Under the pieces are notes generated by a model. The model saw nothing but the letters and a program-made list of their open reading frames with translations. It ran no database searches and was not told the DNA's origin. Shown piece by piece: positions 30,941 to 62,820 of a stretch of 64,000 nucleotides of DNA. The translations under genes and the position numbers were made by a program. Positions within the stretch are counted from its first letter, which is position 1, and each line of letters begins with the position of its first letter. The stretch is from Pseudogymnoascus verrucosus. Its lineage: Eukaryota. The stretch lies in assembly GCA_001662655.1 (NCBI GenBank), contig KV460251.1. One strand, written 5' to 3'.

Positions 30941-31544
30941 GTTGAGGCTGGATTCTGCGATGTTTGGGCAGAAATAGTCTCAGTTGTCTGAAGGGTTTCA
31001 AGGCGCAAACGGTTGGTGGCCTCGATGGGGTCGAATTTCGGATATAGAAATGTTCGTGGGGCTCGTTAGCGGCAGAACATTTCGCGATGTGGTATGTGGT
31101 CACGTGATCTACTGATTGCAATCGTAATCCAAGGCACTAACACATACCATCAGATTCTAAATATACTCAAGCCTCTACTGTACAAAAATAGCCCACAGGA
31201 GTCACACTTCAAACCCATGATACAATCACAATATCGTAAAAAGATATGTATACAATGAGAGGGGATTTCATCATATTATTCGTTTTTAATCTGTTTTTAC
31301 ACTAAGAGCCGTGCTCCATATCTCGAAATGCCCCCGTATGCTCTGTCTGTATAATACAACGCCTCCGTCCCGAGCTTGATAAACCTGTGCCCAATTGGGA
31401 GAACTAATACAACAAAGAATACCGCTTAAACCGCGATTTACGAGTACAAATGGTACAACAACCTGATGAGCCGCATCTATGCAACATCAAAGCTTCTGTG
31501 ACATAAAAAAAAATGGTAGTTTTCGATCCTGGTAGTGACATCCC

Positions 31545-33738
31545 TTACTCCTTCTTCTCACCCTCCTTTGGCTCCTCTGGCTTGGCCTCACCGGCCTGGC
31601 CAGACTCAGAACGGGCCTTGTGCATCTTATCGAACAGGTTCAAGCTGGCCATCTGGAGCTCGTCGGACTTCTCCTTGAGCTCAGCAGCGGTGGCGGTACC
31701 CTCACCAGACTGGCTCTTGGCGACGAACTCGCGAAGGGCTGCAATCTTCTCGCGGATCTGATCAGCCTCGGTCTTGTCGAGTCTGTCGGCAAACTCGTTG
31801 AGTGCCTTCTCGGTATCGTTCAGGACGCTGTCCGAGCGGTTGGCGGCCTCAATGGCAGCCTTGCGCTCCTTATCAGCCTCAGCGTACTTCTCAGAGTCGT
31901 TGACCATGTTCTGGATCTCCTCATCGGAGAGACCAGATCCGGAAGCCAGGGTGATAGACTGGTCCTTGTTGGTAGCCTTGTCGGTGGCGTGGACGTGGAC
32001 AATAGAATCGGCATCAATGTCGAAAGTGACCTCAATTTGAGGAACACCACGGTGTGCTGGTGGGATACCAACAAGCTGGAAGTTTCCGAGCAGCTTGTTG
32101 TCGCGGACAAGCTCACGCTCTCCCTGGTAGACCTTGATCTCGACAGCAGTCTGGAAATCAGCGGCGGTGGAGAAGATCTGGGACTTCTTGGTGGGGATGG
32201 TGGTGTTGCGGTTGATGAGACGGGTGAAGACACCTCCGAGGGTCTCGATACCAAGAGAGAGAGGGGTGACATCAAGGAGGAGCACATCCATGACCTCACC
32301 GGCCAGGACAGCACCCTGGATAGCAGCTCCGATGGCAACAGCCTCATCGGGGTTGACAGACTTAGCTGGGTCACGGCCGAAGATGCTCTTGACGGACTCG
32401 GCAACCTTGGGCATACGGGTCATACCACCAACGAGGATAACCTCCTGGATGTCCTTAGCCTGGAAGTTGGCATCCTTGAGTGCCTTGCGGACTGGCTCAA
32501 TGGTGCGGTTGATAAGAGGGTCAACGAGGCCCTCAAGCTGGGTCCTGGTCATCTTCATGTTGATGTGCTTTGGTCCGGAAGAATCGGCAGTGATGAAAGG
32601 AAGGTTGATATCGGTCTGCATGGAAGAAGACAGCTCAATCTTGGCCTTCTCGGCGGCCTCACGGATTCTCTGGATGGCCATGCGGTCACCCTGCAGATCG
32701 ATGCCAGAAGTCTTCTTGAAGTCCTGGACAAGGTGGCGAACAAGGGTGATATCGAAATCCTCGCCACCCAAGTGAGTGTCACCGTTGGTGGACTTAACCT
32801 CGAAAACGCCCTTCTGGATCTCGAGAACGGAGATATCGAAGGTTCCTCCTCCAAGATCGTAGACAGCGATGATTCTGTCCTCCTCCTTCTCAAGACCGTA
32901 TGCAAGAGCAGCGGCAGTAGGCTCGTTGACGACACGGAGAACGTTCAGGCCAGCAATTTGACCGGCATCCTTGGTGGCTTGGCGCTGGGAGTCGTTGAAG
33001 TAAGCTGGGACAGTGACAACGGCGTTCTTGATTGGCTTGTTGAGGAAGGCCTCGGCGGTCTCCTTCATCTTCTGGAGGACGAATCCACCAACTTGCGATG
33101 GCGAGTACTTCTCACCGCGAGCCGAGACCCAGGCATCACCGTTTGTGTGTTGGACGATCTTGTATGGGACCTCCTTAATATCGCGCTGCACCTCAACATC
33201 GGTGAACTTCCTTCCGATCAATCGCTTGGTGGCGAACAGGGTGTTCTCGGGGTTGACAACAGCCTGACGCTTTGCGGACACACCGACCAAACGCTCACCG
33301 TCTTGTGCAAATGCTACGACGGAGGGAGTTGTGCGGGCACCTATTGAATAATGTTAACATTGGACCTAATGGATAAAATAGCATATTATCATCAATGCTT
33401 ACCTTCAGAGTTCTCGATAATCCTTGGGACCTTGCCCTCCATCACGGCAACGGCAGAGTTTGTAGTTCCTTTGGGTAAATGTTAGTACGTGCCGATATCG
33501 CATAGTATCGGAGCATTCTTACCCAGATCAATACCGATCACCTGTCCCTTGACCTTCTCCTCGGCACCGGCAGCGGTAGACTCATAGCGAGCGAATTTAG
33601 ATAGTAATGGTGCGCGGTTGGCTGTGCGTGTGAAGGAGGTGGTTGCCCGGGGAAGCTGGAAAAGACGGAGTCAGTAAAAAAGATTCGGCCCAGATCGATC
33701 CAGTTACTTACAGCTCTGGAAAATTTAGAAGCCAACAT
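31545..33738 (-). CDS. SSC1: Mitochondrial Hsp70
   Basis: Presequence [17 protein letters not shown]..., [29 protein letters not shown] and [13 protein letters not shown]; three introns in the 5' part. Confidence 0.96.
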
Positions 33739-41149: not shown

Positions 41150-42417
41150 CTACAATTTTGTGCTGGTGTTAAGAAAATGTTTCGGATCCAAGCTGCTGCA
41201 ATCTGCGCTGTGGGCTTTGCCTTCGAGGATCATCTCACTCATGACCAGGCCCGTTCCGGGTCCATTCTGAATACCCCACTCATCATGGCCAGTTGCGAGC
41301 CATAGGCCATGAATCCCGACAGGTCCGACCATAGGACCGACCTCCTCATCTTCTTCATGCTGCCGTATCTGAGGCTTATAGCAAGCTTGCTTCTTAACAA
41401 GTGCCCCATCATGGATTTCTTGTGAAACGCTTCCGATTGCTTTCAAAATGTCGGCGCATTTCTGGTCAACCAGCTCGATATCTCCAGTATCAGAGGGTAG
41501 GCTAGTTTCGCAGTCATCGAGTCCGATGGCGTAGACGGTGTCAAATTCATAGAGGTGGTCAGCAGGCCGAGGGTAGATATCTGGTGAGAGTAACTCGTCG
41601 AATGGGCTGGCTGGAGCTGGTTGGATATTGCGGAAAAGTATGTATGGTGACAGCGGCCTTGTTGGCTTAACAATAACACTATGTCCTCGAGGAGTCAACA
41701 AGGACACAGAAGGAAGTATATTGGGAGTTCATGGTCCCGCAGCAACGAGTATGTCAGTTGCATCAATCGTATGGGTGCCTTCATCATCCTCGAACTCGAC
41801 AGATTTGACAACCTTCCTATCTCATCTAAATTGATCTTGGTTGCAGATGCTTTGAGTTTGAACATAACGCCTTTCGACTCAGCGAGTTTGGCGAGTGTCT
41901 TGGTGAACATGTAAGGGTTCACCTGGCCAGAATTTCCTGGAACGCCTATCTCACCATACTGCTGTGTACTTCCAGGCAGAAGCCAATCCAGAGATGAAGG
42001 TGCATCACCATTGCCCTTCAGCTCGGGAGAGTCGGTCGCTTTGAGAATTTGTCTAAGGAGTTTGACATCAGCTGCAAACACATTTCTGTGCCCCCAAATC
42101 TTATCTCCACCATGTTCTTTTGCAAGGTCATTGTGAAGCCTGAAGCTAAGAGGTGCAAGGCATTTTGGAGTAGCCTAGTCTGCGATGAACCCTCCTCCCT
42201 TTCCACTAGAGCCTTCCGCAATATTGTTGGCCTCGAGAACGGTAACTGAGTGTACTTTGGAGTCGTAGAGCGGATGGTGCGACAGATAGTAAGCAGTTGA
42301 CGTGCCAACAATACTGCCGCCTACATATCGTGATTAACCTAGATTCACCAAGCATAAATCATGATCTTTACCAATGACAACAATTATCTGTTTTGTTTCG
42401 CCTTGCTGAGCAGCCAT
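41150..42417 (-). pseudogene. FAD-dependent oxidoreductase (DAO/Tda3-like) pseudogene
   Basis: IVVIGGSIVGTSTAYYL, SSGKGGGFIAD*AT (TAG 42177-42175), GQVNPYMFT, a frameshift near 41820, VAAGP*T (TGA 41731-41729) and ATGHDEWGIQNGPGTG; intron 42371-42321. Confidence 0.85.
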
Positions 42418-43562: not shown

Positions 43563-44487
43563 CTACTCGTCATCCTCGAGATCATATGCTGCGGCTCCCT
43601 CGTAAATATCACGACATCCATATTCCTCATCGTCACCGCATGGGGCCAGATGCTCTCCGTCACGGTCCATCACAAAAACACGCCCACCATCCTCCTCATC
43701 TTCGTTGTCATTATCCCAAGAATTAGCATAGCGATGTTCTGAGAACAAAGCCGGTTCAGCGCATTGATAGCCCCTTCTATGGTCTGGTAACTCATTCTCT
43801 TCAGCAAGGTCATCCCACAAAGACTCCTCGAGCGCGACATCAGTGACTCCACGATTTCGCTGTCTGAGACTGCTCCCCAAGAAAATTTGATGACCGCGTC
43901 GAACATCCGCTTCATCAACTTTATCAAATTCATCGTCATACTCTCCTTCATCTTCATCTTCATCTTCNNNNNNNNNNNNNNNNNNNNNNNNNNNNNNNNN
44001 NNNNNNNNNNNNNNNNNNNNNNNNNNNNNNNNNNNNNNNNNNNNNNNNNNNNNNNNNNNNNNNNNNNNNNNNNNNNNNNNNNNNNNNNNNTCATCTTCAT
44101 CTTCATCTTCGTCATCGTCATCGTCATCGCTGCGTCCTCTCAGCGCACCTTCCACCCACAACGAGCCCATGGCACCAGCCTGTCGTCTCGCACCAACACC
44201 ATCACGCTCCCATGCCTCGCGCATATCTTCGAGTGCATTATACGTCAGGACTCTCTGAGCTTCCTCTGGCATTTCTTGGGCAAAGGCAACACCACCACCA
44301 AGGCCGGCATAGGCATTGTAGTCTTCGTTGTGTGCTGCATGTTCGCCGGAACCGATCTGTACAAGAGACGGATGGTAGTCATAGCCGTCTTCATAGATTT
44401 CGCTCGGGCCGCCGAAGATGATCCTTTGAGAAATAGTGAGAGGTGAGCTCGGAGATTGCTTCTCGATGCGGGTGCGTAGTTGACTCT
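43563..44487 (-). CDS. Acidic hypothetical protein spanning an assembly gap; 5' end uncertain
   Basis: Asp/Glu-rich frames on both sides of the N run, with (GAAGAT)n repeats at both gap edges; ends ...AAAYDLEDDE*. Confidence 0.5.
43968..44090. other. Assembly gap inside a (TCATCT)n repeat
   Basis: N run flanked by the same hexamer repeat. Confidence 0.98.
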
Positions 44488-44699
44488 GTATGTATATGTA
44501 GTGGAGATTGATAGGATAGGGGGTGAAGAATATAGAGATAGATGGAGTGTGAGGCTGCTGGCTTTCGAACAATTGTACCAATAGGATGTCGACGCCCCCC
44601 TCCTCAACTGCTCAAGTAGGATTCTCAAAACTTCCCAGGTTATAGGTCAACATTTGTCAGTACTCGCATTTCAGTCGCTCGAAGCGTCTTTTCTCGCAG

Positions 44700-49866: not shown

Positions 49867-51495
49867 CTATAGCTGGTATCTAAACGTTGGGGCCCTGTCT
49901 CCCATCTCACTTAACTGTTGATCTGTATGTTCGCTCCCATCATTATGCAAAGCATCTCTCTTCTCATTAATCCGCATATAACTATATCTCAACGCAGCTA
50001 AAGCAATCATCCCAATAACACAGAACATGAGTTCGAGCCCGTGGCCTAGCAGGAACTTAGGAGAATCGACTTTGCGGTAGAAGTTCGAGGCCATTGCGCC
50101 TCCTAAATTTCCAACGCCAATGTGTAACGCCATACCGGCTGCACGCTTGTAGGAACCGGCGAGATTGTTAGACATCCAAGTAATGTTTCCTGGGAAGGCT
50201 GGGTAGATTCCACAGGTGGCAATGAAAACGCCGGCGTAGACGACGCCAGGGACAGTGCCTGCCGCAGATCCAGCGATGGCCATAATAAAACCGACGAGGA
50301 TTGCACACATCGGAAAGAAGACGTATGGCGAGCGGCTCCTCCCTGCTTTTGCGGCCTTGTCCGAGAAGTAGCAGACCACCAATGTCACGACGGCCGCTGT
50401 GATGTAAATCGGGATTGTGAGCAGTTGAGCAATTGTCGCAGTGTAACCCAATTGAGAAATGATGGTAGGCAGGAAGAGGCTGATTCCGTAGAGGGGGCAG
50501 ACAATACCCCAGTACATCAGAATTCCGAGATATAGCTGCCAATCAGTCATAGCCTGGAAAACATATTTCCACTTGAACTTGTCATCCTCAGCAACCATCC
50601 TGTCAGAGCGATTAGATCCTTGGTACTTGAGACGATGAGCAGCCCAAGCTCTCTCCTCCGGCGTTAAGAACGAAGCAGTTTCTGGGAAATCATGGAGCAG
50701 AAAGAAAGCGGCAATAGCGACAACGACGGTAAGGAGGCCCTCGAGGATAAAAATCCATCTCCAGCCCTCGTATTCGCCAACGCCGTTCATCTTAACGATG
50801 AGATAAGCAAGAAGCCCAGAGAAAGCTCCAGCCATCGAAGCCGCACTGAAGAAGAGACCCTGTCGAAGAGCCATTTCGTTCGTGCAGTACCACATTGTCA
50901 GGTAGTACGCCACACCAGGGTAGAGACCAGCTTCCGTGACGCCAAGAAAGATGCGGATGACGACTAACGCGTGGTAACTCTGGACGACTCCTAGACACAC
51001 GGTGCAGGTTCCCCAGGCGATCATAATGGAAGGCAGCCAGATCTAGGAATACATTAGATCTGAGTTATCTACAAAAGAGAGAAGACTCACAGATGGGCGG
51101 AGGCGTTTGAGAAGAAGATTCGAAGGGACCTCGAAGGCGCAGTATGTTAGAAAGAAGCTGTTTCAAATCATTAGATCGTGCGTCTTAAACTTTCATACTA
51201 GGCAACCAGCAACTCACACAGTCGACGCAATATTGTATCCGTTATCTGATAGATGAAGGTCTTTGGTGAGGCCTTGAATTTTCGCATTGCCAATATTTCC
51301 ACGATCAAGAAAAGCCAGCAAATACAAGACTGCGAGAGCTGGAATGAGTCTGACGTCCATCTTTCTTAGCGTCTTCTTCTCATCAATCCCCGAGAAATCG
51401 GCATCGTGTCCCTCAGAATTTAAATCATGCTCAAGCTCTTTCTCGACGGCATCTTCTTGGCCAACAGAAACAGGCTTATCAGTTAGAGACGACAT
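49867..51495 (-). CDS. MFS transporter, anion:cation symporter family (Tna1/Dal5-like)
   Basis: RKMDVRLIP...FLDRGNIGNAK, FEVPSNLLLKRLRPS, GWRWIFILEG and C-terminal GDRAPTFRYQL. Exons 51495-51218, 51157-51091, 51042-49867. Confidence 0.93.
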
Positions 51496-51726
51496 TTTGA
51501 GAGAATCAGGAGTGGATGCATGAAAAACTGCACAGTCTTGGTGACTTCAGATTTGAACAACACAATACTCGACGACAATCAAAACAATGAAGATACTAAT
51601 CCAAAGTAGTGAAGGATATTTAAGTAACTATTTAATTAGAAGATTATCTCTCTACGTATTTTAATGCTTATATATCTTTGTAGAGTCTTGCTCTGCCCAT
51701 CCCACGACTTAGGAAAACCCCGCATC

Positions 51727-51923
51727 TCGGATCCGANNNNNNNNNNNNNNNNNNNNNNNNNNNNNNNNNNNNNNNNNNNNNNNNNNNNNNNNNNNNNNNN
51801 NNNNNNNNNNNNNNNNNNNNNNNNNNNNNNNNNNNNNNNNNNNNCTCGGATCCGATAATTGGAAGATCGTTCTACACAAATAGTACGGATCGGATCCGAC
51901 TTCAACCATTAATAAGGATCCGA
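51727..51923. promoter_or_regulatory. Cluster of CGG-N2-CCG palindromes upstream of the MFS gene (candidate Zn2Cys6 sites)
   Basis: TCGGATCCGA at 51727, 51846 and 51890; near-match AGGATCCGA at 51915. The first two flank an N gap (51737-51844) and may be one site. Confidence 0.7.
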
Positions 51924-52399
51924 CTCAACCAGTATAGCGCTTTCAGATGGCCCCCCCACTCTACGTCTAACCCCGCTACCATGGATGCCAACTAGATCCA
52001 CTGTGGCAAGCAACTCGCTCCAGTTGCGATGCATGCCGGCAATCTTGAGCGGCATGTGACCTGTGCGAGGGCATTCAAGCACAGATATTACCAGTTCTAG
52101 TAGTGTGCCCAAGGTGTGCAAACCGTAATAAGCGCCATAGCTTTGAGGTAGGTAGTCCACCTCTGGATTAACTCCGTTCTGTCTCCTTTCTGTTTAAAAT
52201 TCTCGCTAACGAGGCTAACACGGTGATTGCTCTATAGTGGACAAAGAGAGACTCGAATGATCAGGCTTTGTTTCTTTTCGCCGGGATCTGTTCATCACAG
52301 CGGGGGGCCTTTTCCAATATCCAAGTGTTCGATTCGGTCATGATTCCTAGCCTACGAAGTCCTACGCTTAGATCTTCTACTAGGAGAAGTACAAACTAT

Positions 52400-54618
52400 C
52401 TACAGCTCTGAACCAGGAATTTCCCTATGTATAACTGATAGTCGAGCCTGTTCCTTTGCATTTCTGACTGATTTTGAAGTTTGTGGGAGCAGATCTAGGG
52501 TCCGAAGCAAGGTCGACTGGAGATTCTCTAAGGTACCGAGGTCCAGTTTGCCAGTTTCATAGTCTCGCTCAATCCCCAGCCACAGAAGTCGTACGGCTGC
52601 GACTACGTGATGGGGATAGGGATCAATTGCAACGAGTGGAACTGTGACAAAGCTGTCTTCCGTCTCCCCCTTTCGCTGAGGTATAACAAAATGATTGCTA
52701 AGCCCGAACACCAGGCAGTTCATAGTACTGCCTTCAGCTTCCGATCGTGTAATTATCAGCCGATCTAATATATCTGTCCGTCCTGCAGTTTCAATGGCGT
52801 CAATCATGATTAAAATGCACAGATGGTAATGTAACATCACTTCGTCTTCAGTTGGACAGCAAGAGTTAGTACAATTATCCTGTGACAGATGATCTTGATG
52901 CAAAGAGCTGTGTAGTAGGGAAGAACTCACACCAGCGAAGCTTTGTATGCTGAGAAAGAAACTGAATGCGTCTCTCGCAAGCTACCAGGAGGGGGCGATA
53001 GGTCATATTGAACTGCTTTATCGCATCGACAGCGCTCGTATATACACGGTGAACGGCATCTTCCTCGTGACCTTCTCGAAGGGCTTCCTTCAAAACAGCA
53101 GCCACCTTCCAAACACGTAGTTTCCATGCTGATGCGGCTGCGATGATTCGGTTGGCGTTTTCTTCTGTAACAATTACCCCACGAAGTCGCCAGTCCTCTG
53201 TCTGGTTGTGGAAAATATCTGTGCACGTCTTAACTAGGCGCCATGATGATTCTGACTCCCACCCCAGAAGCCCTGACGAAAGTAAAGATTTAGTGTTGAA
53301 GGTCAGTGAAGAAGAAGTATCATAAGTAAGCGCGGCCCAATAAATAATGCTCTCCATACTCATAAAATCAATCTGGAACTGATCCAGACTAGTCATAATT
53401 GCTACCCGGTCTGAAATTGGGCAGACCTTCGAGCCGTTGAACTCAAGGCTCCTTTGTCGGGCACGTAGGTGCTGTACATGTTGTAGAGCAGCTTGGACAC
53501 AGAACTGAGCTGGAATGCCGCTATCTTCCTCCTCTTCTGATATTCCTGCTGGTATCGGGACCATAGCAAAAAGAAACAGACACAGCATCGACCGATAGCA
53601 TGGCCGATTGATAATTTTTATCAGGTCCTTCCGTAGGCCTCGCCAGAGACTCTCGATCAGCTCAGTCTGTGCCGCCTTGTGCAATGGTGACTCAAACGTT
53701 AGAGGTAACCATCGAGCGGAAAATGTTTGAATTGCTTGATTCAGACAGTGATCAATTTGCTGCTCCTTCTTAACCTCGGCTTGAGTTGGGGCCTGGTCAC
53801 TAGCAACGTCATTCCCTTGAGCTTCTAAATCCTTCATCCATTGATCGAATTGCCTACAAAGAGAAGAAATACTAATGGACAATGCAAGCGGTGTCCGCTC
53901 GCTAGAACCATTTTCCAAGTGCCTATGCTCCCCAAAACTGACACGTCATTAGCCTTCCCTCAAAGGCGGAGATATCCTCCCTACTTACACAAATGGACAA
54001 CTATAATTCCCTAACCAGGAACCGAAGACCGCCTCAAAAACATCTTCATACATAGTATATAGCCAGTCCGCTATATCTGTGTTCACAGCTGGTGCGGGCG
54101 TAAATGGTGTAGGAGATCCGTACCAGTTGTCGTCGGAGGCATCTTCTTCCTCTCTAGGTCTCGTATTGTTAGCAAGGTTACGACTGCAATCATTAAGAGT
54201 CGATTAATTTACCTCTCAGAAGGAGACCCAAGCATAGAATTTTGTTGTCTAGGAATCAGGCTCCCTTCAACAACTTGGATAGGTGAAGAATCTGTTAGCG
54301 GTGATGGACGCTGATCCCTGCGATTAGAAATCAAAGTCCGATTATTTGACGAAACTGCGGCTCTCTCCATCCACTGAAGCTCAATTTGCACGTTAACATG
54401 TTGGTCAAAGTCGTCATTAGGGGGAAAGACAAAATGGAATTAACCCGCAGATGGTCTCCTACCTCAAAGCTACAACGTCGATTGCGGTTTGCGCACCTCG
54501 TGCATGCGGCCAGACCTGTGGCTGAACGTCCTCGTACTGCGTCACATGCCACACGAGATTTTCGACATGCATCGCAACTCGAAAATTGCTTGCGACGGTG
54601 AATCAGACCAGCATTCAT
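52400..54618 (-). CDS. AlcR-like Zn2Cys6 transcription factor
   Basis: RRKQFSSCDACRKSRVACD-(long loop)-CTRCANRNRRCSFEW and LYTMYEDVFEAVFGSWLGNYSCPF parallel the AlcR zinc cluster and its downstream conserved block; four introns splice in frame. Confidence 0.85.
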
Positions 54619-54894
54619 GACAATGGAGCTGGATGTATAGCAATAGTTGGTTTGGAAGGCAGTGCAAGTGTTTGGTCTTAATAGCAGCTTGGTTTGATCC
54701 GCAAACTGGACACAGAGGACTAACGTCGATGAGGGCGCCATCCAACCCCGCGTTCTAGCCTAATTGAGCAGAACCAAGGCAACAATCTTTCGGAATATTC
54801 TCATGTAACAATTATACGAACACTATAAATATGCCCTTTTCGCAGTAAACGAGCGCGGTGCATGTAGGAATACAGCAAGGCTATATTTAACAAA

Positions 54895-56086
54895 TCAAAG
54901 TCTATGCTTCTCGTCGAGAGTCCCTGTATAATTGTAAAAACCCCGTCCACTTTTTATTCCTAAATGACCGTTCTGGATCATTTTTTGGACATAATCTCGT
55001 GGCTCTGGAGGGATGCCGATCCGTGAGTCTGCATAATGATTTTCAATGTCTAGCACGACATCTAATCCAACAATATCCATGAGCTCACACGGCCCCTTTG
55101 GCGTCTTCAAGACATCTTTGAAAATGGCATCGATCTCTTGTGGCGATCCAACGCCCTCGGAGAGAGCGAGAAGAGTTTCACGTTTGATGGCGGCCCAAAT
55201 CCTAGACCATGGCGCAATTCAGCCTTTGGTCGCGATTGCAAGAATACATAGGGGCGTACCTGTTGTATATATAGCCTATGGAGCTTTGTTTAACATGGAA
55301 TGGTGAAAATCCATGAGCCTTACATTGCTCTAAGAGCAGAGCGATGAGTGAAGGATCTGTTTCGTTGTGGCCCATAATTTCAATTGCTAGCAAAGGAAGT
55401 TTAATGAAACAAGATCGTATAATGCAATATACAGCATAAATGCATACCTGTGGTCTCTGGCGGCCAGTCTAATAATTTCTCCTAATTAGCACTGCCCTTA
55501 GAATTATGTTAGAAAAGGCCACCTACAACAGTGTGCGCTTAATGCCCTCTTCTTATGACGCAAATTTACCCCATCCAAGATCTCTGAAATTCCGTAGCTG
55601 CTGGAATTAGATGCAATAATTGTGCCTTCAGGAGCAAGTTTATCAAGCTGAATGATTATTTTTCGCTTTAATGCCAAGTTCTCCGGCACACACTATTCCC
55701 AGTATATATTGTTAGGCATTTGCTCTCTCTCCTCCCAGAGCTAGGTCATACCTCAACAACTAACCATGAGTCTTTTAACCAGGACTCTAACGAGTTCGGT
55801 GTTGATGCCATGATCTCCCCCCAGTTTGAGTCATCGCTAGTTGATTTAGCACGAAGTTGCTGGATATACAGTAGAGCTTCTTGCTGTTTTCGTTCCTCTA
55901 GGTCGACTAAGTGAACAGGACTACCTCTGCTTGACCACTTTGAGGCATTCGCACGTTAGCGTCGGTGTACCAGCGAATTTATTACGGCGACACGCCCATA
56001 GTGCTTACCATGTAAGCCAGCCGCCGGCCCTGAGCACCGGCACCGATGACGACAACGGTCCGCGGAAGAGGTCTGGATACTTCCAT
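54895..56086 (-). CDS. 3-hydroxyacyl-CoA (3-hydroxybutyryl-CoA type) dehydrogenase
   Basis: VVVIGAGAQGRRLA, VVECVPENLALK, IIASNSSS, AHCYWPP, GYIYNRIWAAIKRE, GPCELMDIVGLD and LGIKSGRGFY; six exons including the 21-nt exon 55468-55448. Confidence 0.92.
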
Positions 56087-56311
56087 TAATATAGTCTCGT
56101 GTGGAGTCAATGATATGATGTCGTTTTAAAGGCGGTGCCCATAAGGTTGATCAGGCCTGACGCCGTGTTTTATACTATCGAGTCTCTGGCGAGGTCAATA
56201 GAATGGTAGTGTCAAGTTCTTAGTTTGTAGGCCTAAATACAAAATAGCCAACCTTACGCTAGTTGAGATCGAACCTCTAGCTTAATGATAGTAGAAATAG
56301 TGGCTCCCCCT

Positions 56312-56532
56312 GCATCCTCGGATCCGTCCTTTCAGGCGGCTCTCTTGGCACTATAGGAGTGTTTACGAGGGAGATACAGGACTGATCCGTAACACTCACA
56401 TGTTTACTTGCGGAACTAACAAGGCGCATGGCGGCGGCTTACTCTTGTCTCACTCATAAGTTGACACTACTCTCTAATGCTAGGTAGCTTGGCTGATCGG
56501 CTAAACAAATCGGATCCGATGAATCGGATCCG
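56312..56532. promoter_or_regulatory. Cluster of CGG-N2-CCG palindromes upstream of the dehydrogenase gene
   Basis: CGGATCCG at 56319, 56511 (inside the 12-bp palindrome ATCGGATCCGAT) and 56525. Confidence 0.7.
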
Positions 56533-57044
56533 CCCCAAGTCCAAAAACCCACCAAGTTTAAGAGTTGCATCTCTTGTTACTAAAAAGCTCTCTAGGCTCT
56601 CTAACTTTAATTCCGGAAGCCGTTGCCTAATTTGCAAAGGGGGGCAGAGGTTTTATACACCAACTTGCTCTTTTAAAGTTAGAGAGCTAGATCCTCCGAG
56701 GGTAGATGGATGCTCTTACTGTTTCCCCCCCTGGAATGATTGTAGCCAGGATGTTTTCTTGCAATGGTGGAGCATGGACACAGGCTACCGATCTTGAAGG
56801 CGAGGTCAATGGGCTCTTGACGTATGATTGTAGAATCCTTAGGACGGACGTCAAGTAGTGGAAGACGGATATTCAGAATCTGTATGACGCTGCTGAAGCC
56901 CGAGGCACCACTGGAGGCACAGATTTTTGGGCCTAAAGATAGTTACACTGCGCCATATGGCTTAATAATCTCAGTGTATTCGTTCGAACCTGAAAATATA
57001 TGTATGGTTTCGAGGATCACGACTACTTGGTATCTTGTTGGCAT

Positions 57045-57982: not shown

Positions 57983-59839
57983 CTATCCTATTTTAATTGT
58001 CTGGATAAGTGCGGAACCCTCTAATGCTTCACCATCCATAATCCCGTGCACATATGCGTCCCCAATAAGCTGCAGCATATTACCCTGGGGTTGTTGCCGA
58101 AAGATGTATGGGACATCGGCGTTGGAAATGACAAAGACAGAGTCTCCAGGTTTTGTCTCGGAAGGTACAATGCCAATATAGCCACCAGATGCAAGCATCG
58201 GTCGCCGGCCACGAGCAATCTCTTGAAGCTGCTGGTTATAGTCACCCAAACCTGCTTCCGTGAAAGTTTGTGAGTCTAAGTGGCCCAGATCTCTATTTGT
58301 CAAGAACTCATGCACTTTACGAATCGTGCTTTCCGAAAGTCGAGGTTTCTCTGTCCCGTGCCATATCTCTTGGTCTGCAACGGCGGTACGCCAGGTAACT
58401 TGCGCTTGCTTAGAACCTTCAACTGCTCTAGATGATAGTTGCGATAGGTTGTTCAAATCACACAACCACCTGGTTACACCTTCATGTTCCCAAATCGCGC
58501 CGACTGATTGCACTTCACCTACGAAAGTCCCAGAAAGAGACAACGTCTTATTATCACCTTCGTTGCAGCCTGAAGCTTGGCCTATTATGAAATTATGGGT
58601 ACCTGATGCTGAGAAACGAGGTTGCAGGAGAGTTGTAGGGTAATTTGTGTCTCTATTAAGCGTACGTCGTTGTAGAGGACAACGGTAAGTCTCGCGTGAC
58701 CAGTCAGGAACCCACGATGGAAGCTCAGGTATCCTCTGTAGGGACTCGCAAAGAGAGAGAATTTCGATGTATCCGGCCTGAAAAAGGGTGTGCGCAGTAT
58801 TGATATAAACTTCAGCACACGACTTGCTATAGTTGGGACGAAGATTGAGCACTTGTCTGTCTTCAGCGATGCCCACTAATGCAAAGACTTTGTCCCGAGG
58901 ATCGGTTGCTTTATCTTGTCGAAGACTTCGCAGAAGACGAATGAGCGGCACTGGTCTAGCTGCTCTTCTAACTTTAAGCAGTTCAATTGCGTTCCGTGTA
59001 TCAATTGAAATAATAGACTCGTCATATGGCCTAAGTTGTGCATCGTGACTTGATGTTAGGAGCCGATAATGTCTAAAGTTTCTCAACACCCTCAAGCCGT
59101 AGTGAAGTTCATTCTCTGTGACAATTTTCTCGCCACATACGAACAATGTCTTTGCTGTAGTGCTCAGCTCTTGAACCACCCATATGCGGCCCCAGTAGTC
59201 GCGTTTGAAGAAGTCAGATAGCGCAGAAATGACCTTACTATATTGCGGATGTGTTGGCGACAGTTGGGCCTTCAGATCCTTGATAAATTGCTTGACGGCC
59301 CCCTCACTGCTCGAGAAGTCTTTCTCGTCTGCTTGGCAGAGATAGCGGAGTCGCAGATTAGGCTTCGTCCCAATGCCTAGTTCAACAGAACGTGCCCCAA
59401 ACTCTGCGATCCATGCCATGGCGATGTCACTATACCCTGCGGCTGGACCTAACCAAGCCAGAACTGAAGCAGCTCGCGAATATATCTCGTGCATTTGTCC
59501 CACTTGCTCACTCTTCTCTAACTCATCACTTTGATTGATACACAGAGCATCTACCCACAGAGTAATCGTTTTGTCTGGTAGCCTTACATGCCGAAGTGCG
59601 TTTTCAAGGTTCTCTGTAACCATTAAAATCGCCCCGTTAACGTAAATTGAACTTCTCGGAGTTGTATCTCCCCAGTTATACGAAAGTGCGATATACGGGG
59701 GGGGATTGTCGAGTGAGACATGAGAAACGTTACAGAAGACATGGTTGATTGAGGAGATATAAGGCTTTCCAGGTAAAACATGAACAACACGGATTGTCTT
59801 CTTATCTGGAGTCAGTGACCGGTATATGAAGCAGGACAT
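57983..59839 (-). CDS. HET-domain (HET-6-like) heterokaryon incompatibility protein
   Basis: YIALSYNWG, LWVDALCINQSDELEKSEQVGQMHEIYSRA, YWGRIWVVQE, ATDPRDKVFAL, LPSWVPDWS and LIGDAYVHGIMDGE; 618 aa, intronless. Confidence 0.95.
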   Translation of the reverse strand: MSCFIYRSLTPDKKTIRVVHVLPGKPYISSINHVFCNVSHVSLDNPPPYIALSYNWGDTTPRSSIYVNGAILMVTENLENALRHVRLPDKTITLWVDALCINQSDELEKSEQVGQMHEIYSRAASVLAWLGPAAGYSDIAMAWIAEFGARSVELGIGTKPNLRLRYLCQADEKDFSSSEGAVKQFIKDLKAQLSPTHPQYSKVISALSDFFKRDYWGRIWVVQELSTTAKTLFVCGEKIVTENELHYGLRVLRNFRHYRLLTSSHDAQLRPYDESIISIDTRNAIELLKVRRAARPVPLIRLLRSLRQDKATDPRDKVFALVGIAEDRQVLNLRPNYSKSCAEVYINTAHTLFQAGYIEILSLCESLQRIPELPSWVPDWSRETYRCPLQRRTLNRDTNYPTTLLQPRFSASGTHNFIIGQASGCNEGDNKTLSLSGTFVGEVQSVGAIWEHEGVTRWLCDLNNLSQLSSRAVEGSKQAQVTWRTAVADQEIWHGTEKPRLSESTIRKVHEFLTNRDLGHLDSQTFTEAGLGDYNQQLQEIARGRRPMLASGGYIGIVPSETKPGDSVFVISNADVPYIFRQQPQGNMLQLIGDAYVHGIMDGEALEGSALIQTIKIG

Positions 59840-60109
59840 AATTAGTATAGGCAGAATTCTACTGAAGGAGTTGGCTGATTGCTAAGGTTTCTGAACGAAA
59901 TTTAGGTGCGCTTTATAAGAGGCAAAGGCCGAACCTGCCTAAATGCAAACGGACTGGTGGAGGCTGGTTAAACGTATAGGAGAAGCGCATTTTGGTTACA
60001 GTAGAACAGTGAAACAGGGACCTGTTCTCCGCTGTCCCGCTCTGTGGCGTAAGCTCCGAACTTACCTCTTGCACGTTCGGTGCATATACAAGAAACAGAT
60101 TTCATGCAG

Positions 60110-60235: not shown

Positions 60236-60719
60236 TCCCCGTTTACCACAAATGGTGCCTAAATAACGACATCAAATTTCCCAACCGCATTTTCCAGGAA
60301 TCAGAGTAGTTGAAGCTTTTGAAGCTTTTGAGCACCTTTGAGAGCTATCTTCCCAGACTCCTCTCAACCTTCTGCAGAGGTCATCATTATCTCTCGTGCC
60401 TCGAGTCATAAAGTGACAGGGATGGTACGACTAGATAAATACCCAACCATTTCTACAAGGCAGACATACAAGTAATGCAAGGCGAACCGAGGCGCAATTC
60501 ATGCAGAATTGTTTGGCCATGATTCGCCCTCGCCATTTTCAAAGAGCCTTGCGCTAAACCGGTAACTTTATAACACACTTATTAAGTTATTTCACAGTGG
60601 CGTGATGATAGATTCCTTAAATGCGTAGCTGCCCAACTTTACACCTTTAAATGACTTCCCAGCCCTCATTACGATAATTAATAACAGATAAACAACAAGA
60701 TACCTACAATTGGGCTCTG

Positions 60720-62820
60720 ATGGCTGAGGTTGTAGGCATATTGGGAAGTGGTGCTGGAATCGCTAGCCTTGGATGCCAAATCTTTAAAAGCATTTACAAA
60801 TTGCAGCAGGTTTTAACAGACATTCGGAATGCTCCACAGGAACTAAAAACTATTTTAGAGGAGATTGCTCTGGTTACAACTATCCTTATCCAGATTTCGG
60901 AACGTCCACACCTTTACACTATTGGCCGAAGCCAGAGTGTGGCTAGAGACCAGGCTGTCATTTACTGTGAAACAGCGTGTAGGCAATTATTTACCGTCGT
61001 CTCTGAGATAGAAAACGAGATAGGAGAATCGAAATGTCGCTCCCGGTGGCACTGCTTCCTAACAGTACTAAAAGCAAAAAAGATTACAGACCTTGTTAAT
61101 AGGCTAGAGAGAGCAAAATCAATTCTTGCACTTGCACAGCTCATGTATCTCCAGTAAGGCGCTTACTTCTCTTGACAATTATTGTAAGCTAACAACAACA
61201 AATAGATCCTTTGAGATTGAGAGGCTAAACCAGAAAACAAAGATCTCATCGATTTCTACCGCAGAAAATCCTGAACCCCGCATGTCAACCACGCCTATAC
61301 GCCAAAATGAAAATGGCCATATCAGTGCCCCTTATAACCAGACAACTTTTCAACTAGGGATTGGCGTACTTGTGGTGCGCCAGGTGCCAAATGGCAGTGG
61401 AAAAACTCGCACTTCTCTAGAAGAAACCATAATTCAGTTTCGATTTGCAGACTGGTTCCTACGATGGGCAATTAGTATCGCGATTTGCCCAGAAATCGAG
61501 AACGTAAAAATAACGATAAGAACCTACCACCTCGTTCCTAGTAGCTCAGCCATATTTCAGGCCTGTGCCTTGGGCGACGACCAGACAGTGGCCCGGCTCA
61601 TCCGAGAAGGTAGAGCTTCTGCATTTGATATGACTAGCAACGGGGTAACTCCTCTGCATGTAAGAAAGTCCAAACTCGCTATCCGCTATGAGTCCAGTCC
61701 TCTTGTGCTCAATTATGGTTATTGTCCAACCTATCTGACGTGTCGGTTTAGGTGGCCGCCGCTTGGCACCATCCTAGTACGTGCAAGCAGCTTTTGGAAC
61801 ATGGCGCAAATAGTTCGTTGTTGATGCAATATAGTACAATCTCGTGGTTAGTGACTTATCAACTCAGTCAACAAACAAATATCCTACTAACAGTATTTTC
61901 CAAGGAACGCCCTAGGCTTGGCCTCCGAATACGCCGGTTACTACCGTTGTTTCTTGTTTCCAGGACTGGAGGAACATCGCCCTGGGCCCAAAGAAGACCT
62001 TAGTCAAAAGCGCGAGACGATGCGTATACTGACTGATCACAATAGTTGCGAAGTGCATCAAGGTTATAGGCCAGGCCATACCGGCTATTGGAATGGGTCT
62101 ACGTCCGCTCTGCACATGTTTCGAGGCACTTCTGACGACTTCTTGTGGTTATACAAGCGTGAAAATGTGTTAATGGACGTTAAAGACTCAGAGGATTATA
62201 TTGCGTCCATTGTCATTCAACAGACTCAGATGTTTCCAAATGCCTCTTTTCCAGCAGCTTTCAGCCTAGTGTCGAGTATGGAACATTTGGCAAAGTACAG
62301 AGACTCTTCTGGATCAACCCTATTGCACCATCTTCTTAACACAAGTTCTGACATAAAACCTGGTTTTTGGATGAATGGAATCGATACTTTTGATATAGCA
62401 AGGACACTACTTGAACATGGTGCAGACCCAACATCTCGCAATGACCAAGGCTACACTCCATTAATGGGTGCCGCAAGGGATAGCCTACTCTACTTACATA
62501 GTAAGGCTTTATTCTGGACGGCTGAATCAGCTGCTAAGATGTACTCTGGATATTTAACTCGTTGGATAAAGACGCTAGAGTCTTGCCTTGTTGACGCCCG
62601 TGAGTACCGCTCTCGAGAAATTGAATTAGGCGCAGAGAGCTTTGTGCTATGCCGGCAGTTTCAGCACTCCAACGACGGACTTAGCGGGACAGGACAATGG
62701 TCCGTAAGACTTGTGTTTGGGCTGGATGATATTCACCATGGCCTTCAAATTAAATTCCAGTTCCAATCTGAAGAGAAGAACGAGAGAATGCCTGGATCTT
62801 GGCCCAAAGAAATAATATAA
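60720..62820 (+). CDS. Fungal STAND-type N-terminal (HeLo-like/SesA-like) domain plus ankyrin-repeat protein
   Basis: MAEVVGILGSGAGIASL...IRNAPQELKTILEEI N-terminus; ankyrin motifs GVTPLHVAA...LLEHGAN, GSTLLH and LLEHGADPTSRNDQGYTPLMGAA; introns 61154-61205, 61660-61751, 61847-61904. Confidence 0.8.

What the first reader, a model, noticed from the sequence alone, without database searches (positions are those of the whole stretch)
49867..56532. Self-contained three-gene regulon: AlcR-like regulator with matching CGGATCCG operator clusters on both neighbours
Seen: co-oriented genes for a 3-hydroxyacyl-CoA dehydrogenase, a Zn2Cys6 factor and a Tna1/Dal5-type anion permease. Both outer genes have three CGGATCCG palindromes upstream (51728, 51847, 51891; 56319, 56511, 56525). 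The proximal site is exactly 233 nt from the ATG in both cases and shares the context CCCCC(T)GCATC(C)TCGGATCCG. Elsewhere I noticed only two isolated coding-region hits (30714, 34944). Established: Zn2Cys6 factors bind CGG triplets, and Aspergillus nidulans AlcR recognises inverted repeats spaced by 2 bp. Inference: this is an uptake plus oxidation module for an unidentified carboxylate or hydroxy-acid, and its operator can be read directly from the sequence.
Basis: partly seen in the sequence, partly recalled or inferred. Interest (0 to 1): 0.75.

Follow-up and report, generated by a model that had tools for sequence, protein, structure and literature searches.

The report
Fungal three-gene module with shared palindromic operator
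A dehydrogenase gene and a transporter gene flanking a zinc-cluster regulator gene in a Pseudogymnoascus-like fungus both carry clusters of the same 10-base palindrome upstream, which looks like an ordinary but unusually legible pathway-specific fungal regulon for an unknown small organic acid.

Summary
CGGATCCG occurs 8 times in the window against 0.74 expected. Six copies lie in two patches of about 200 bp, upstream of the dehydrogenase and permease genes. The proximal copy is 233 nt from each ATG. All six read TCGGATCCG, and four are the perfect 10-mer TCGGATCCGA (4 found, 0.11 expected). All three genes are on the minus strand.

The regulator's DNA-binding exon matches the AlcR DNA-binding domain far better than any other solved structure (E 1.7e-5, next 1.4). 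An AlcR target quoted in print has the same CGG-N2-CCG geometry.

The regulator-dehydrogenase pairing recurs across Eurotiomycetes and Sordariomycetes. In 23 of 66 regulator homologues the gene model is fused to a dehydrogenase, and 5 more have adjacent locus tags. The permease is linked in some of them.

Not shown: binding, co-induction, the substrate, and motif conservation in orthologous promoters, because no fungal DNA collection was available. The regulator's own 5' region lacks the motif. A decayed inverted copy of its first exon lies beside the permease promoter.

Verdict: a real, conserved, uncharacterised member of a well-known kind of fungal regulon.

The parts
54895..56086 (-). HADH-family NAD dehydrogenase gene. 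294 aa in 6 exons: 56086-56009, 55937-55752, 55692-55527, micro-exon 55468-55448, 55386-55260, 55201-54895 (includes the stop).
   Evidence: Pfam 3HCDH_N and 3HCDH on exons. Model built from GT-AG sites and orthologue alignment. 71-73% identical over the full length to Penicillium and Emergomyces proteins of 293-300 aa.
52400..54618 (-). Zn2Cys6 regulator gene. 644 aa in 5 exons: 54618-54463, 54373-54213, 54153-53989, 53937-52931, 52845-52400. Cysteine pattern C-X2-C-X6-C-X13-C-X2-C-X6-C in exon 1.
   Evidence: Model. 408 of 637 aligned residues identical to the Penicillium canariense protein P0001. Zn_clus E 0.0019, 18.7 bits, below the 21-bit cut-off. Best solved match is the AlcR DNA-binding domain 1F4S, E 1.7e-5.
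49867..51495 (-). MFS permease gene. 506 aa in 3 exons: 51495-51218, 51157-51091, 51042-49867.
   Evidence: Pfam MFS_1, E 6.7e-25. Model. 503 of 506 residues identical to a 506-aa protein of Pseudogymnoascus sp. VKM F-103. 6 of the 120 listed homologues are named nicotinic acid transporter or Tna1 by their sources.
51727..51736 (.). Permease-proximal palindrome TCGGATCCGA, 233 nt from the permease ATG. It is part of a composite element 51718-51736 with a G-rich box (gene sense CGGATCCGAGATGCGGGG).
51737..51844 (.). 108 masked bases (N) between permease sites 1 and 2. Content unknown; further sites may be hidden here.
51846..51855 (.). Permease middle palindrome TCGGATCCGA.
51886..51899 (.). 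Permease distal palindrome TCGGATCCGA (51890-51899), with an overlapping extra CGGATC half site at 51886.
51914..51923 (.). Degenerate copy AAGGATCCGA (one intact half site).
56306..56327 (.). Dehydrogenase-proximal composite element. Palindrome at 56318-56327 (TCGGATCCGT), 233 nt from the ATG, plus a G-rich box (gene sense CGGATCCGAGGATGCAGGGGG).
56510..56533 (.). Two distal dehydrogenase palindromes 14 bp apart: TCGGATCCGA at 56510-56519 and TCGGATCCGC at 56524-56533.
54619..54894 (-). The regulator's own 5' intergenic region (276 bp, directly after the dehydrogenase stop). No copy of the 10-mer within 2 mismatches; only one lone GATCCG half site at 54696.
51981..52188 (+). Decayed, inverted copy of the regulator's ATG, exon 1 and the first ~40 nt of intron 1. 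It carries an in-frame stop, an indel, and His in place of the last Cys. It points away from the permease and lies about 85 bp from the distal palindrome.
   Evidence: tblastn 58% identity, E 1.4e-6. DNA alignment. 142 of 194 aligned bases identical, with no RIP-type bias.

Best explanation
This is a pathway-specific fungal regulon. It lies in a genome closely related to Pseudogymnoascus sp. VKM F-103 (99% identity over the main permease exon).

Proposed mechanism. A Zn2Cys6 activator with an AlcR-type DNA-binding domain recognises the palindrome (A/C)TCGG-AT-CCGA, that is, two inverted CGG half sites 2 bp apart. By analogy with AlcR, one zinc module probably sits on each half site. The sites occur in triplicate upstream of the two neighbouring structural genes. 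When an inducer is present, the permease and the NAD-dependent HADH-family dehydrogenase would be switched on together. The permease imports a small organic anion, and the dehydrogenase oxidises a beta-hydroxy group on it or on a close derivative.

Shown: the genes, the sites and their enrichment, the identical -233 position, the AlcR-like domain, and conserved linkage of regulator and dehydrogenase across fungal classes.

Inferred: that this regulator binds these sites, that it activates rather than represses, that the two genes are co-induced, that the substrate is a free hydroxy-acid, and that the module is catabolic.

The regulator itself seems to have lost direct access to the sites. A relic of its first exon beside the permease promoter suggests it once shared that promoter divergently and was later inverted.
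For: Motif enrichment.
- 8 CGGATCCG against 0.74 expected, with 0 of 100 shuffles reaching 8.
- 4 exact TCGGATCCGA against 0.11 expected.
- 6 of the 8 lie in the two 5' regions flanking the regulator gene.
- Of 25 CGGNNCCG octamers in the window, only the AT-spacer form is over-represented.

Site architecture.
- The proximal site is at -233 in both genes, inside a shared ~20-nt element. The promoters are otherwise unalignable, so this is not a recent promoter duplication or a dispersed repeat.
- In gene sense all 6 sites read CGGATCCGA(G/T).

DNA-binding domain.
- AlcR is the only significant solved match (E 1.7e-5 against 1.4 for Leu3). The Sordariomycete orthologue P0043 gives 1.3e-5.
- The Cys3-Cys4 loop is long: 13 residues here, and 10-20 in the 38 of 66 homologues whose N-terminus is intact.
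- 18 positions of the 52-residue exon are invariant in 33 sequences, including the R-x-Q-F-S-S-C-D arm.

Geometry. The AlcR site printed in PMC13606033 contains GCGGAACCGC, which is CGG-N2-CCG.

Conserved linkage.
- 23 of 66 regulator homologues are annotated as fusions with 3HCDH domains, and 2 of 66 as fusions with MFS_1.
- tblastn shows these are neighbouring co-oriented genes.
- Adjacent locus tags for regulator and dehydrogenase occur in P. diatomitis, P. oxalicum, Emergomyces pasteurianus, F. falciforme and F. nematophilum.
- In Neonectria ditissima, AK830_g225 (regulator-dehydrogenase fusion) sits next to AK830_g226 (permease homologue, 318 of 495 identical).

Enzyme. The Ser, His, Glu and Asn motif positions of the HADH family are present when the window protein and the orthologue are compared with the diketoreductase alignment.
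Against: - No binding or expression data exist.
- Motif conservation in orthologous promoters could not be tested, because no fungal DNA collection was available.
- The half site here is TCGG in 10 of the 12 half sites (one of those 10 runs into the masked stretch). AlcR's is (A/T)GCGG (PMC6265462), so AlcR's specificity cannot simply be transferred.
- The regulator's own 5' region lacks the motif, unlike autoregulated alcR (recalled).
- Gene order differs between taxa. The order is TF then HADH in Sordariomycete fusions, MFS then TF in Talaromyces amestolkiae, and HADH-TF-MFS here.
- The MFS linked in T. amestolkiae is only 267 of 458 identical, less than some unlinked homologues. Permease membership may therefore not be ancestral.
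- Pfam Zn_clus is below its curated cut-off (18.7 against 21 bits), and no Fungal_trans domain was detected.
- The substrate is unassigned. Solved relatives range from CoA-dependent Hbd to diketoreductase and lambda-crystallin, at similar E-values of 1e-21 to 5e-26.
- 108 bases inside the permease site cluster are masked.
Confidence: 0.55

Rival explanations
1. The palindromes are genuine cis-elements that co-regulate the two genes, but they are read by a different, unlinked factor, for example another zinc-cluster protein or a global regulator. The adjacent regulator would recognise something else or act indirectly.
For: - The regulator's own promoter has no copy.
- CGG-N2-CCG is embedded in motifs of other zinc-cluster factors. 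Examples are Sef1 CGGnnCCGnnnnCGG (PMC8557406) and Leu3 CCGGNNCCGG (PMC2065891).
- The half site differs from AlcR's GCGG.
- A second shared box (ATGC[G/A]GGGG) abuts the proximal site, which implies further factors.
Against: - The sites flank the regulator gene on both sides and occur nowhere else in non-coding DNA of the 64-kb window.
- The regulator's domain is of the one structurally known class that uses 2-bp-spaced inverted CGG sites.
- The Leu3 reading needs C before CGG, and here it is T.
- Linkage of regulator and target is conserved.
Confidence: 0.2
2. The genes are co-regulated, but the dehydrogenase acts on a CoA thioester in a beta-oxidation-like route, as a true 3-hydroxyacyl or 3-hydroxybutyryl-CoA dehydrogenase. 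The permease would import something only indirectly related, such as a vitamin like nicotinate. The module would then not be a simple 'import then oxidise the same molecule' pair.
For: - The window's C-terminal exon scores best against 3-hydroxybutyryl-CoA dehydrogenases (E 2e-11).
- Sources name many homologues 3-hydroxybutyryl-CoA dehydrogenase.
- Some permease homologues are named Tna1 nicotinic acid transporter.
Against: - No CoA ligase or transferase, hydratase or thiolase lies in the module or its flanks.
- For the full-length orthologue, the best solved match is a non-CoA diketoreductase (5e-26), and lambda-crystallin ties with Hbd.
- No conserved PTS1-like C-terminus was seen among 98 unfused homologues.
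- The names are automatic annotations.
Confidence: 0.2
3. The palindromes are not regulatory. They would be remnants of a repeat or mobile element, or a cloning or assembly artefact. CGGATCCG is the sequence of a commercial BamHI linker (recalled).
For: - The motif contains a BamHI site.
- Two copies flank a masked stretch of 108 N with identical 11-mers.
- The region shows past rearrangement, namely the relic exon.
Against: - Six copies sit in varied natural contexts in two separate 5' regions. They share no flanks of 12 nt or more, and no transposon-like repeat family was found.
- The -233 position is identical in both genes, with a shared adjacent box.
- The neighbouring coding sequence is 503 of 506 identical to an independent Pseudogymnoascus record, which argues against a chimeric assembly. 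That record's DNA could not be compared.
Confidence: 0.05

Closest known systems
AlcR and the ethanol (alc) regulon of Aspergillus nidulans
   Same: - Zinc-cluster domain with an unusually long Cys3-Cys4 loop and a basic arm just upstream. AlcR is the only significant solved match.
- Targets include inverted CGG half sites 2 bp apart (GCGGAACCGC), present in multiple copies upstream of a dehydrogenase gene clustered with the regulator.
- AlcR binds as a monomer (PMC6265462). No obvious coiled coil follows the cluster here (read from the sequence; inference).
   Different: - Not an orthologue. It is 644 aa with no detectable similarity tested beyond the DNA-binding exon.
- The loop is 13 residues, not 16.
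- The half site is TCGG, not (A/T)GCGG.
- The targets are an HADH-family enzyme and an MFS permease, not alcohol and aldehyde dehydrogenases.
- There are no sites in its own promoter, whereas alcR is autoregulated (recalled).
Clustered fungal catabolic regulons with regulator, permease and oxidising enzyme, such as prn (proline), qa/qut (quinate) and hxn (nicotinate). Recalled, not tested here.
   Same: Same logic: a pathway-specific regulator gene physically linked to a permease and a first oxidative enzyme, with repeated regulator sites in the structural-gene promoters.
   Different: Different protein families and motifs. The substrate here is unknown. The module is smaller, with two structural genes in this window.
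Leu3 (CCGGNNCCGG) and Sef1 (CGGnnCCGnnnnCGG) sites
   Same: Both contain the string CGG-N2-CCG (PMC2065891 and PMC8557406, passages).
   Different: - Leu3 reads everted CCG-N4-CGG and needs C/G outside the core, where this motif has T/A.
- Leu3 is a non-significant match to the domain (E 1.4).
- Sef1 needs a third CGG 4 bp away, which is not seen here.
HADH-family enzymes acting on non-CoA substrates: diketoreductase 4DYD, lambda-crystallin/L-gulonate 3-dehydrogenase 3ADO, and FHMPC dehydrogenase 4OM8
   Same: Same two-domain fold family. Orthologue P0043 matches them at E 5e-26, 2e-21 and 2e-17. Catalytic motif positions are conserved in the printed alignment.
   Different: Identity is low, none is an orthologue, and CoA-dependent Hbd enzymes score equally. 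The fungal family has its own conserved His-x-Tyr-Trp-Pro-Pro-Glu segment, partly encoded by a 21-nt micro-exon.

Membership tests
Zn2Cys6 binuclear-cluster transcription factors (Pfam PF00172) | Six cysteines spaced C-X2-C-X6-C-X5-16-C-X2-C-X6-8-C near the N-terminus | tested here: met
   Exon 1 reads C-X2-C-X6-C-X13-C-X2-C-X6-C. All six Cys are invariant in 33 aligned family members.
Zn2Cys6 binuclear-cluster transcription factors (Pfam PF00172) | Score above Pfam's curated gathering threshold | tested here: inconclusive
   Window exon: 18.7 bits against a cut-off of 21, E 0.0019. Orthologue P0001: 21.0 bits, exactly at the cut-off. The long loop depresses the score.
AlcR-type DNA-binding domain | Sequence likeness to the AlcR domain, including the extended Cys3-Cys4 loop and the upstream basic arm | tested here: met
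   1F4S at E 1.7e-5, 28 bits, aligned over residues 8-51. The next hit, Leu3, is at E 1.4. Reproduced with P0043.
AlcR-type DNA-binding domain | Extra alpha-helices between and after the zinc-binding helices (PMC6265462) | tested here: inconclusive
   The AlphaFold2 model of exon 1 with a 33-row alignment had mean pLDDT 58.4 and showed only the two zinc-binding helices. That is too poor to judge, and no fold search was run on it.
AlcR-type DNA-binding domain | Monomeric binding to (A/T)GCGG half sites | not testable with these tools
   Needs EMSA or NMR. The half sites here are TCGG in 10 of 12.
AlcR orthologue (ethanol regulon activator) | Full-length orthology and linkage to alcA/aldA-type genes | tested here: not met
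   The neighbours are an HADH-family gene and an MFS gene. The homologues found are unnamed Zn(2)-C6 proteins, none called AlcR. Full-length comparison with AlcR was not possible, because only its DNA-binding domain is in the PDB.
3-hydroxyacyl-CoA dehydrogenase family (PF02737 + PF00725) | NAD-binding N-domain plus C-terminal domain above the curated cut-offs | tested here: met
   3HCDH at 68.1 bits (cut-off 22.1) and 3HCDH_N at 41.5 bits (cut-off 22), on single exons.
3-hydroxyacyl-CoA dehydrogenase family (PF02737 + PF00725) | Catalytic Ser, His, Glu and Asn motif positions (roles recalled from human HADH) | tested here: met
   The positions are aligned and conserved between orthologue P0043 and diketoreductase 4DYD. 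The same motifs are present in the window protein. The His-containing motif occurs in 62 of 98 unfused homologues.
3-hydroxyacyl-CoA dehydrogenase family (PF02737 + PF00725) | Substrate is a CoA thioester | not testable with these tools
   Solved relatives with and without CoA substrates score alike. The Atlas gives only generic names.
Anion:cation symporter-type MFS (Tna1/Dal5 group) | MFS fold | tested here: met
   MFS_1 at E 6.7e-25, 88.2 bits against a cut-off of 33.4.
Anion:cation symporter-type MFS (Tna1/Dal5 group) | Closer to Tna1/Dal5-type permeases than to other MFS subfamilies | tested here: inconclusive
   The only evidence is names given by sources. 6 of the 120 listed homologues are called nicotinic acid transporter or Tna1, and a Talaromyces fusion is called 'putative transporter C11D3.18C'. 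No curated subfamily model or tree was run.
Pathway-specific regulon (regulator plus cognate operator in target promoters) | The same over-represented motif in the promoters of two or more linked genes | tested here: met
Pathway-specific regulon (regulator plus cognate operator in target promoters) | Linkage of regulator and targets conserved in other genomes | tested here: met
   For regulator and dehydrogenase: 23 of 66 fused models plus 5 adjacent locus-tag pairs. For the permease the evidence is partial: 2 of 66 fusions and one adjacent pair.
Pathway-specific regulon (regulator plus cognate operator in target promoters) | Motif conserved in orthologous promoters; regulator binds it; targets co-induced and regulator-dependent | not testable with these tools
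   No fungal genomic DNA collection is available (genome contigs holds bacteria and archaea only). There are no expression or binding data.

The most novel reading that the evidence does not exclude
The regulator-dehydrogenase pair, often with the permease, would be an old, widely conserved AlcR-class regulon of Pezizomycotina for a nutrient nobody has yet identified. It seems to be missing from the usual model species. Its operator (A/C)TCGGATCCGA can be read from sequence. In this Pseudogymnoascus-like genome the module would have arrived by horizontal transfer from a Eurotiomycete into an accessory-type region rich in HET and NLR genes. An inversion then tore the regulator away from a formerly shared, autoregulatory bidirectional promoter and left a fossil first exon behind.
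Probability: 0.25. Interest if true: 0.55.

Novelty: new member of a known kind. Interest (0 to 1): 0.4.

Why it matters
If confirmed, it would give a function-ready handle on a regulator family conserved in many Penicillium, Talaromyces, Fusarium, Trichoderma, Clonostachys, Metarhizium, Exophiala and Onygenales genomes. The handle has three parts: a defined operator, two target genes and a testable inducer screen. No characterisation of this family turned up in the paper searches.

It would also add a second natural example of AlcR-type recognition of 2-bp-spaced inverted CGG sites, with a different flanking-base preference. That is useful for understanding zinc-cluster specificity and for building orthogonal inducible promoters.

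Beyond that, it is an ordinary kind of fungal catabolic cluster.

Tried and rejected
**Literature searches**
- The motif strings returned 3,077 papers, essentially all primers carrying BamHI sites. Nothing was usable.
- Six orthologue locus tags returned 0 papers.
- 'AlcR-like', 'AlcR homolog' and similar returned only 2 papers, both about bacterial siderophores.
- CGGNNCCG-type strings returned 6 papers. Only the Sef1 and Leu3 passages were relevant.

**Protein and structure searches**
- A Pfam scan of 20 ORFs in the flanks (44.2-49.9 kb and 56.5-60.3 kb) found no family. No further cluster genes were identified.
- Atlas look-alikes of the dehydrogenase gave only generic '3-hydroxyacyl-CoA dehydrogenase' clusters.
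- PDB comparison could not discriminate the substrate class.
- The AlphaFold2 model of the DNA-binding exon had pLDDT 58.4. It was too poor, so no fold search was run.

**Sequence checks**
- Peroxisomal targeting: the window protein ends in a PTS1-like tripeptide, but the C-termini of 98 unfused homologues are not conserved. This idea was dropped.
- RIP as the cause of relic decay: transitions run equally in both directions, 19 against 21. Rejected.
- The 64-nt 'inverted repeat' at 51727-51855 is an artefact of N pairing with N.
- A lone GATCCG half site in the regulator's 5' region is not meaningful. There are 49 such hexamer hits in the window.
- A CreA-like reading of the G-rich box fits only one of the two promoters (consensus recalled). 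It is not claimed.

**Not used**
- The genome-contig scan, because that collection holds no fungi.
- Complex prediction.
- The metagenome and viral collections, which were closed.
- Supplementary files of papers.

Full report
**1. The observation**

The expected count from 100 dinucleotide-preserving shuffles is 0.74, the largest shuffle count is 3, and none reaches 8.

Two hits lie inside coding ORFs: 30714 in an eIF3g ORF and 34944 in a DUF2415 ORF. The other six fall in two short patches, 51728-51898 and 56319-56532.

Each of the six is preceded by T. Four are the perfect 10-base palindrome TCGGATCCGA, which has 4 hits against 0.11 expected. Of the 25 CGGNNCCG octamers in the window, only the AT-spacer form is over-represented: 8 copies, with the next most frequent form at 4. 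Copies of the 10-mer with up to two mismatches are barely above chance (38 found, 29 expected). The signal therefore rests on exact or near-exact copies.

**2. The genes**

All three genes lie on the minus strand, so 'upstream' means higher coordinates. I built gene models from GT-AG introns and alignment to homologues.

- **Permease.** 506 aa in 3 exons, 51495-49867. It is 503 of 506 identical to a 506-aa protein of Pseudogymnoascus sp. VKM F-103. This places the window in that genus or very near it.
- **Regulator.** 644 aa in 5 exons, 54618-52400.
- **Dehydrogenase.** 294 aa in 6 exons, 56086-54895. One exon is a 21-nt micro-exon at 55468-55448, directly after the codon of the presumed catalytic histidine.

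Pfam finds MFS_1, 3HCDH_N plus 3HCDH, and a sub-threshold Zn_clus.

With these start codons, the proximal palindrome begins 233 nt from the ATG in both genes.

The stretches between site and ATG do not align (98 of 288 columns identical). The two 5' regions share no word of 12 nt or more, and every shared 9- to 11-mer contains the palindrome. The only extended similarity is about 20 nt at the proximal site, in gene sense CGGATCCGAG(G)ATGC(G/A)GGGG. This argues against a duplicated promoter or a dispersed repeat. It favours selection on the site and its position, with the caveat that n = 2.

One limitation: 108 bases between the first and second permease sites are masked (51737-51844), so three sites is a minimum there.

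**3. The regulator**

Its first exon carries C-X2-C-X6-C-X13-C-X2-C-X6-C. Among all solved structures, the only significant match is the AlcR DNA-binding domain (1F4S, E 1.7e-5). The next is Leu3 at E 1.4. A Sordariomycete orthologue gives the same result.

The long loop between the third and fourth cysteine is a family trait. It is 10-20 residues in the 38 of 66 homologues whose N-terminus is intact. In 33 aligned members, 18 of the 52 exon positions are invariant, including the basic arm and the first recognition segment. A conserved DNA target across the family is therefore expected.

From passages I read:
- AlcR binds as a monomer to (A/T)GCGG and has extra helices in its domain (PMC6265462).
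- An AlcR target used in expression vectors contains GCGGAACCGC, which is two inverted CGG 2 bp apart (PMC13606033, figure legend).

The geometry is the same as here. The base before CGG differs: it is T in 10 of the 12 half sites, and one of those 10 is cut off by the masked stretch. The reading 'AlcR-like domain, AlcR-like site geometry' is therefore supported. 'AlcR orthologue' is not.

An AlphaFold2 model of the exon was too poor to test for the extra helices (pLDDT 58.4).

**4. Conservation of the linkage**

No fungal DNA was available, so I used annotation accidents and locus tags.

- Of the 66 homologues of the regulator's main exon (624-2000 aa searched), 23 carry 3HCDH Pfam domains, 2 carry MFS_1, and 1 carries an aminotransferase domain.
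- tblastn of such fusions onto the window shows they are merged neighbouring genes. The order is regulator then dehydrogenase in Emericellopsis and Dactylonectria, and permease then regulator in Talaromyces amestolkiae.
- Unfused regulator and dehydrogenase homologues have consecutive locus tags in Penicillium diatomitis, P. oxalicum, Emergomyces pasteurianus, Fusarium falciforme and F. nematophilum.
- They lie 2-3 tags apart in F. decemcellulare, Malbranchea cinnamomea and P. angulare.
- In Neonectria ditissima, the fused regulator-dehydrogenase model g225 is followed by g226, a permease homologue.

So the regulator-dehydrogenase pair is conserved across Eurotiomycetes and Sordariomycetes despite changes of order. 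The permease is linked in several taxa but not demonstrably in all. The T. amestolkiae permease is only 267 of 458 identical.

**5. What the enzymes do**

The dehydrogenase has the family's catalytic motif positions (the residue roles are recalled).

Its substrate cannot be assigned. For the orthologue, the best solved relative is a diketoreductase (5e-26). Next come 3-hydroxybutyryl-CoA dehydrogenases and lambda-crystallin/L-gulonate 3-dehydrogenase, all near 2e-21, and a pyridine-carboxylate dehydrogenase at 2e-17. The Atlas gives only generic names.

No CoA ligase, hydratase or thiolase lies nearby, and no conserved peroxisomal signal exists. I therefore favour oxidation of a free beta-hydroxy acid or similar anion imported by the permease. 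This is inference.

**6. An unexpected feature**

Between the regulator's stop (52400) and the permease sites lies a decayed copy of the regulator's start codon, first exon and the first ~40 nt of intron 1. It is on the opposite strand (51981-52188) and points away from the permease.

- It is 58% identical at the protein level within the window (E 1.4e-6).
- 142 of 194 aligned bases are identical.
- It carries an in-frame stop and an indel.
- There is no RIP-type bias.

The regulator's present 5' region is only 276 bp, directly after the dehydrogenase stop, and contains no copy of the motif.

The simplest reading is that the regulator once shared the palindrome-bearing promoter divergently with the permease, which would have made it autoregulated. 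It was later inverted, leaving a duplicated boundary. This is inference. It may now depend on a weak promoter of its own or on read-through from the dehydrogenase gene.

**7. Context**

The module sits in the lower-GC half of the window (44-47% against 50-57% in most of the first 40 kb). Its neighbours are a HET-domain gene and a SesA/ankyrin gene.

I ran a quick tree of the dehydrogenase with 40 of the 98 unfused homologues, chosen by me for named taxa. It places the window protein in a group of 19 Eurotiomycetes (SH-aLRT 91, not starred). That group is away from the only other Leotiomycete row. This hints at horizontal transfer or patchy retention, but no more than that.

**8. Comparison with the known, and verdict**

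This works like the classic clustered catabolic regulons of filamentous fungi, and most like the alc system in its domain type and site geometry. It is not a member of the alc regulon.

CGG-N2-CCG also occurs inside the Leu3 and Sef1 motifs, but the flanks here fit neither. Paper searches found no characterisation of this regulator family: searches returned nothing relevant, and one search was uninformative because of primer noise. Supplementary tables of transcription-factor deletion collections were not searched and could hold phenotypes for orthologues.

I rate it a new member of a known kind. It is real, neatly legible and easy to test. It is not surprising to a specialist unless the substrate or the evolutionary history turns out to be unusual.

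Noticed in passing
window 51981-52188 (+): Inverted, decayed duplicate of the regulator's ATG, exon 1 and the start of intron 1. 142 of 194 nt are identical, and it carries a stop codon and an indel. It lies between the regulator's 3' end and the permease promoter, which suggests a past inversion away from a bidirectional promoter.
   Followed up: yes
window 51737-51844 and 43968-44090: Two masked runs of N (108 and 123 bases). The first lies inside the permease site cluster and is flanked on both sides by the same 11-mer CTCGGATCCGA. The second lies inside a 313-codon minus-strand ORF (43670-44611) with no Pfam hit.
   Followed up: no
window 55448-55468 (-): A 21-nt micro-exon in the dehydrogenase gene, encoding the residues just after the catalytic His. 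36 of 98 unfused database homologues lack the corresponding motif. Automatic gene models may have skipped the micro-exon, or those proteins may be paralogues.
   Followed up: partly
window ~40000-64000: GC drops from about 50-57% to 43-48% at ~40 kb. The low-GC part holds a HET-domain gene (57986-59881, -), a SesA/ankyrin NLR-like gene (60678-62820, +), split DAO-type oxidoreductase ORFs (41153-42174, -) and the module. It looks like an accessory-type region.
   Followed up: partly
window 54895-56086 versus homologues: In a quick tree the dehydrogenase groups with 19 Eurotiomycete sequences (SH-aLRT 91), not with the one other Leotiomycete row. The regulator's best hits are also Penicillium (64-70%), while the permease's nearest non-congeneric hit is the Leotiomycete Oidiodendron (85%). 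This could reflect horizontal transfer or mosaic origin.
   Followed up: partly
P0187 (Pseudogymnoascus sp. 24MN13), P0029 (Penicillium angulare): In another Pseudogymnoascus strain the dehydrogenase is annotated as fused behind a SesA-NACHT-ankyrin NLR, so its upstream neighbour differs from this window. In P. angulare a fragment of the regulator is fused to a class I/II aminotransferase, which may be an extra pathway gene.
   Followed up: partly
window 31539-33344 (+) / 31548-33353 (-): A 602-codon ORF matching Pfam 'NAD-GH' runs exactly antisense to an Hsp70 gene. This is the well-known spurious antisense frame of Hsp70 (recalled), not a second gene.
   Followed up: no
window 56596-56610 / 56673-56687: A perfect 15-nt inverted repeat with a 62-nt spacer, 60-150 bp beyond the distal dehydrogenase palindromes. 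Function unknown.
   Followed up: no
window 56306-56318 and 51718-51727: A G-rich box (gene sense ATGC[G/A]GGGG) directly abuts the proximal palindrome in both promoters. It may be a site for a second factor. The permease copy fits the CreA consensus as I recall it, but the dehydrogenase copy does not.
   Followed up: partly
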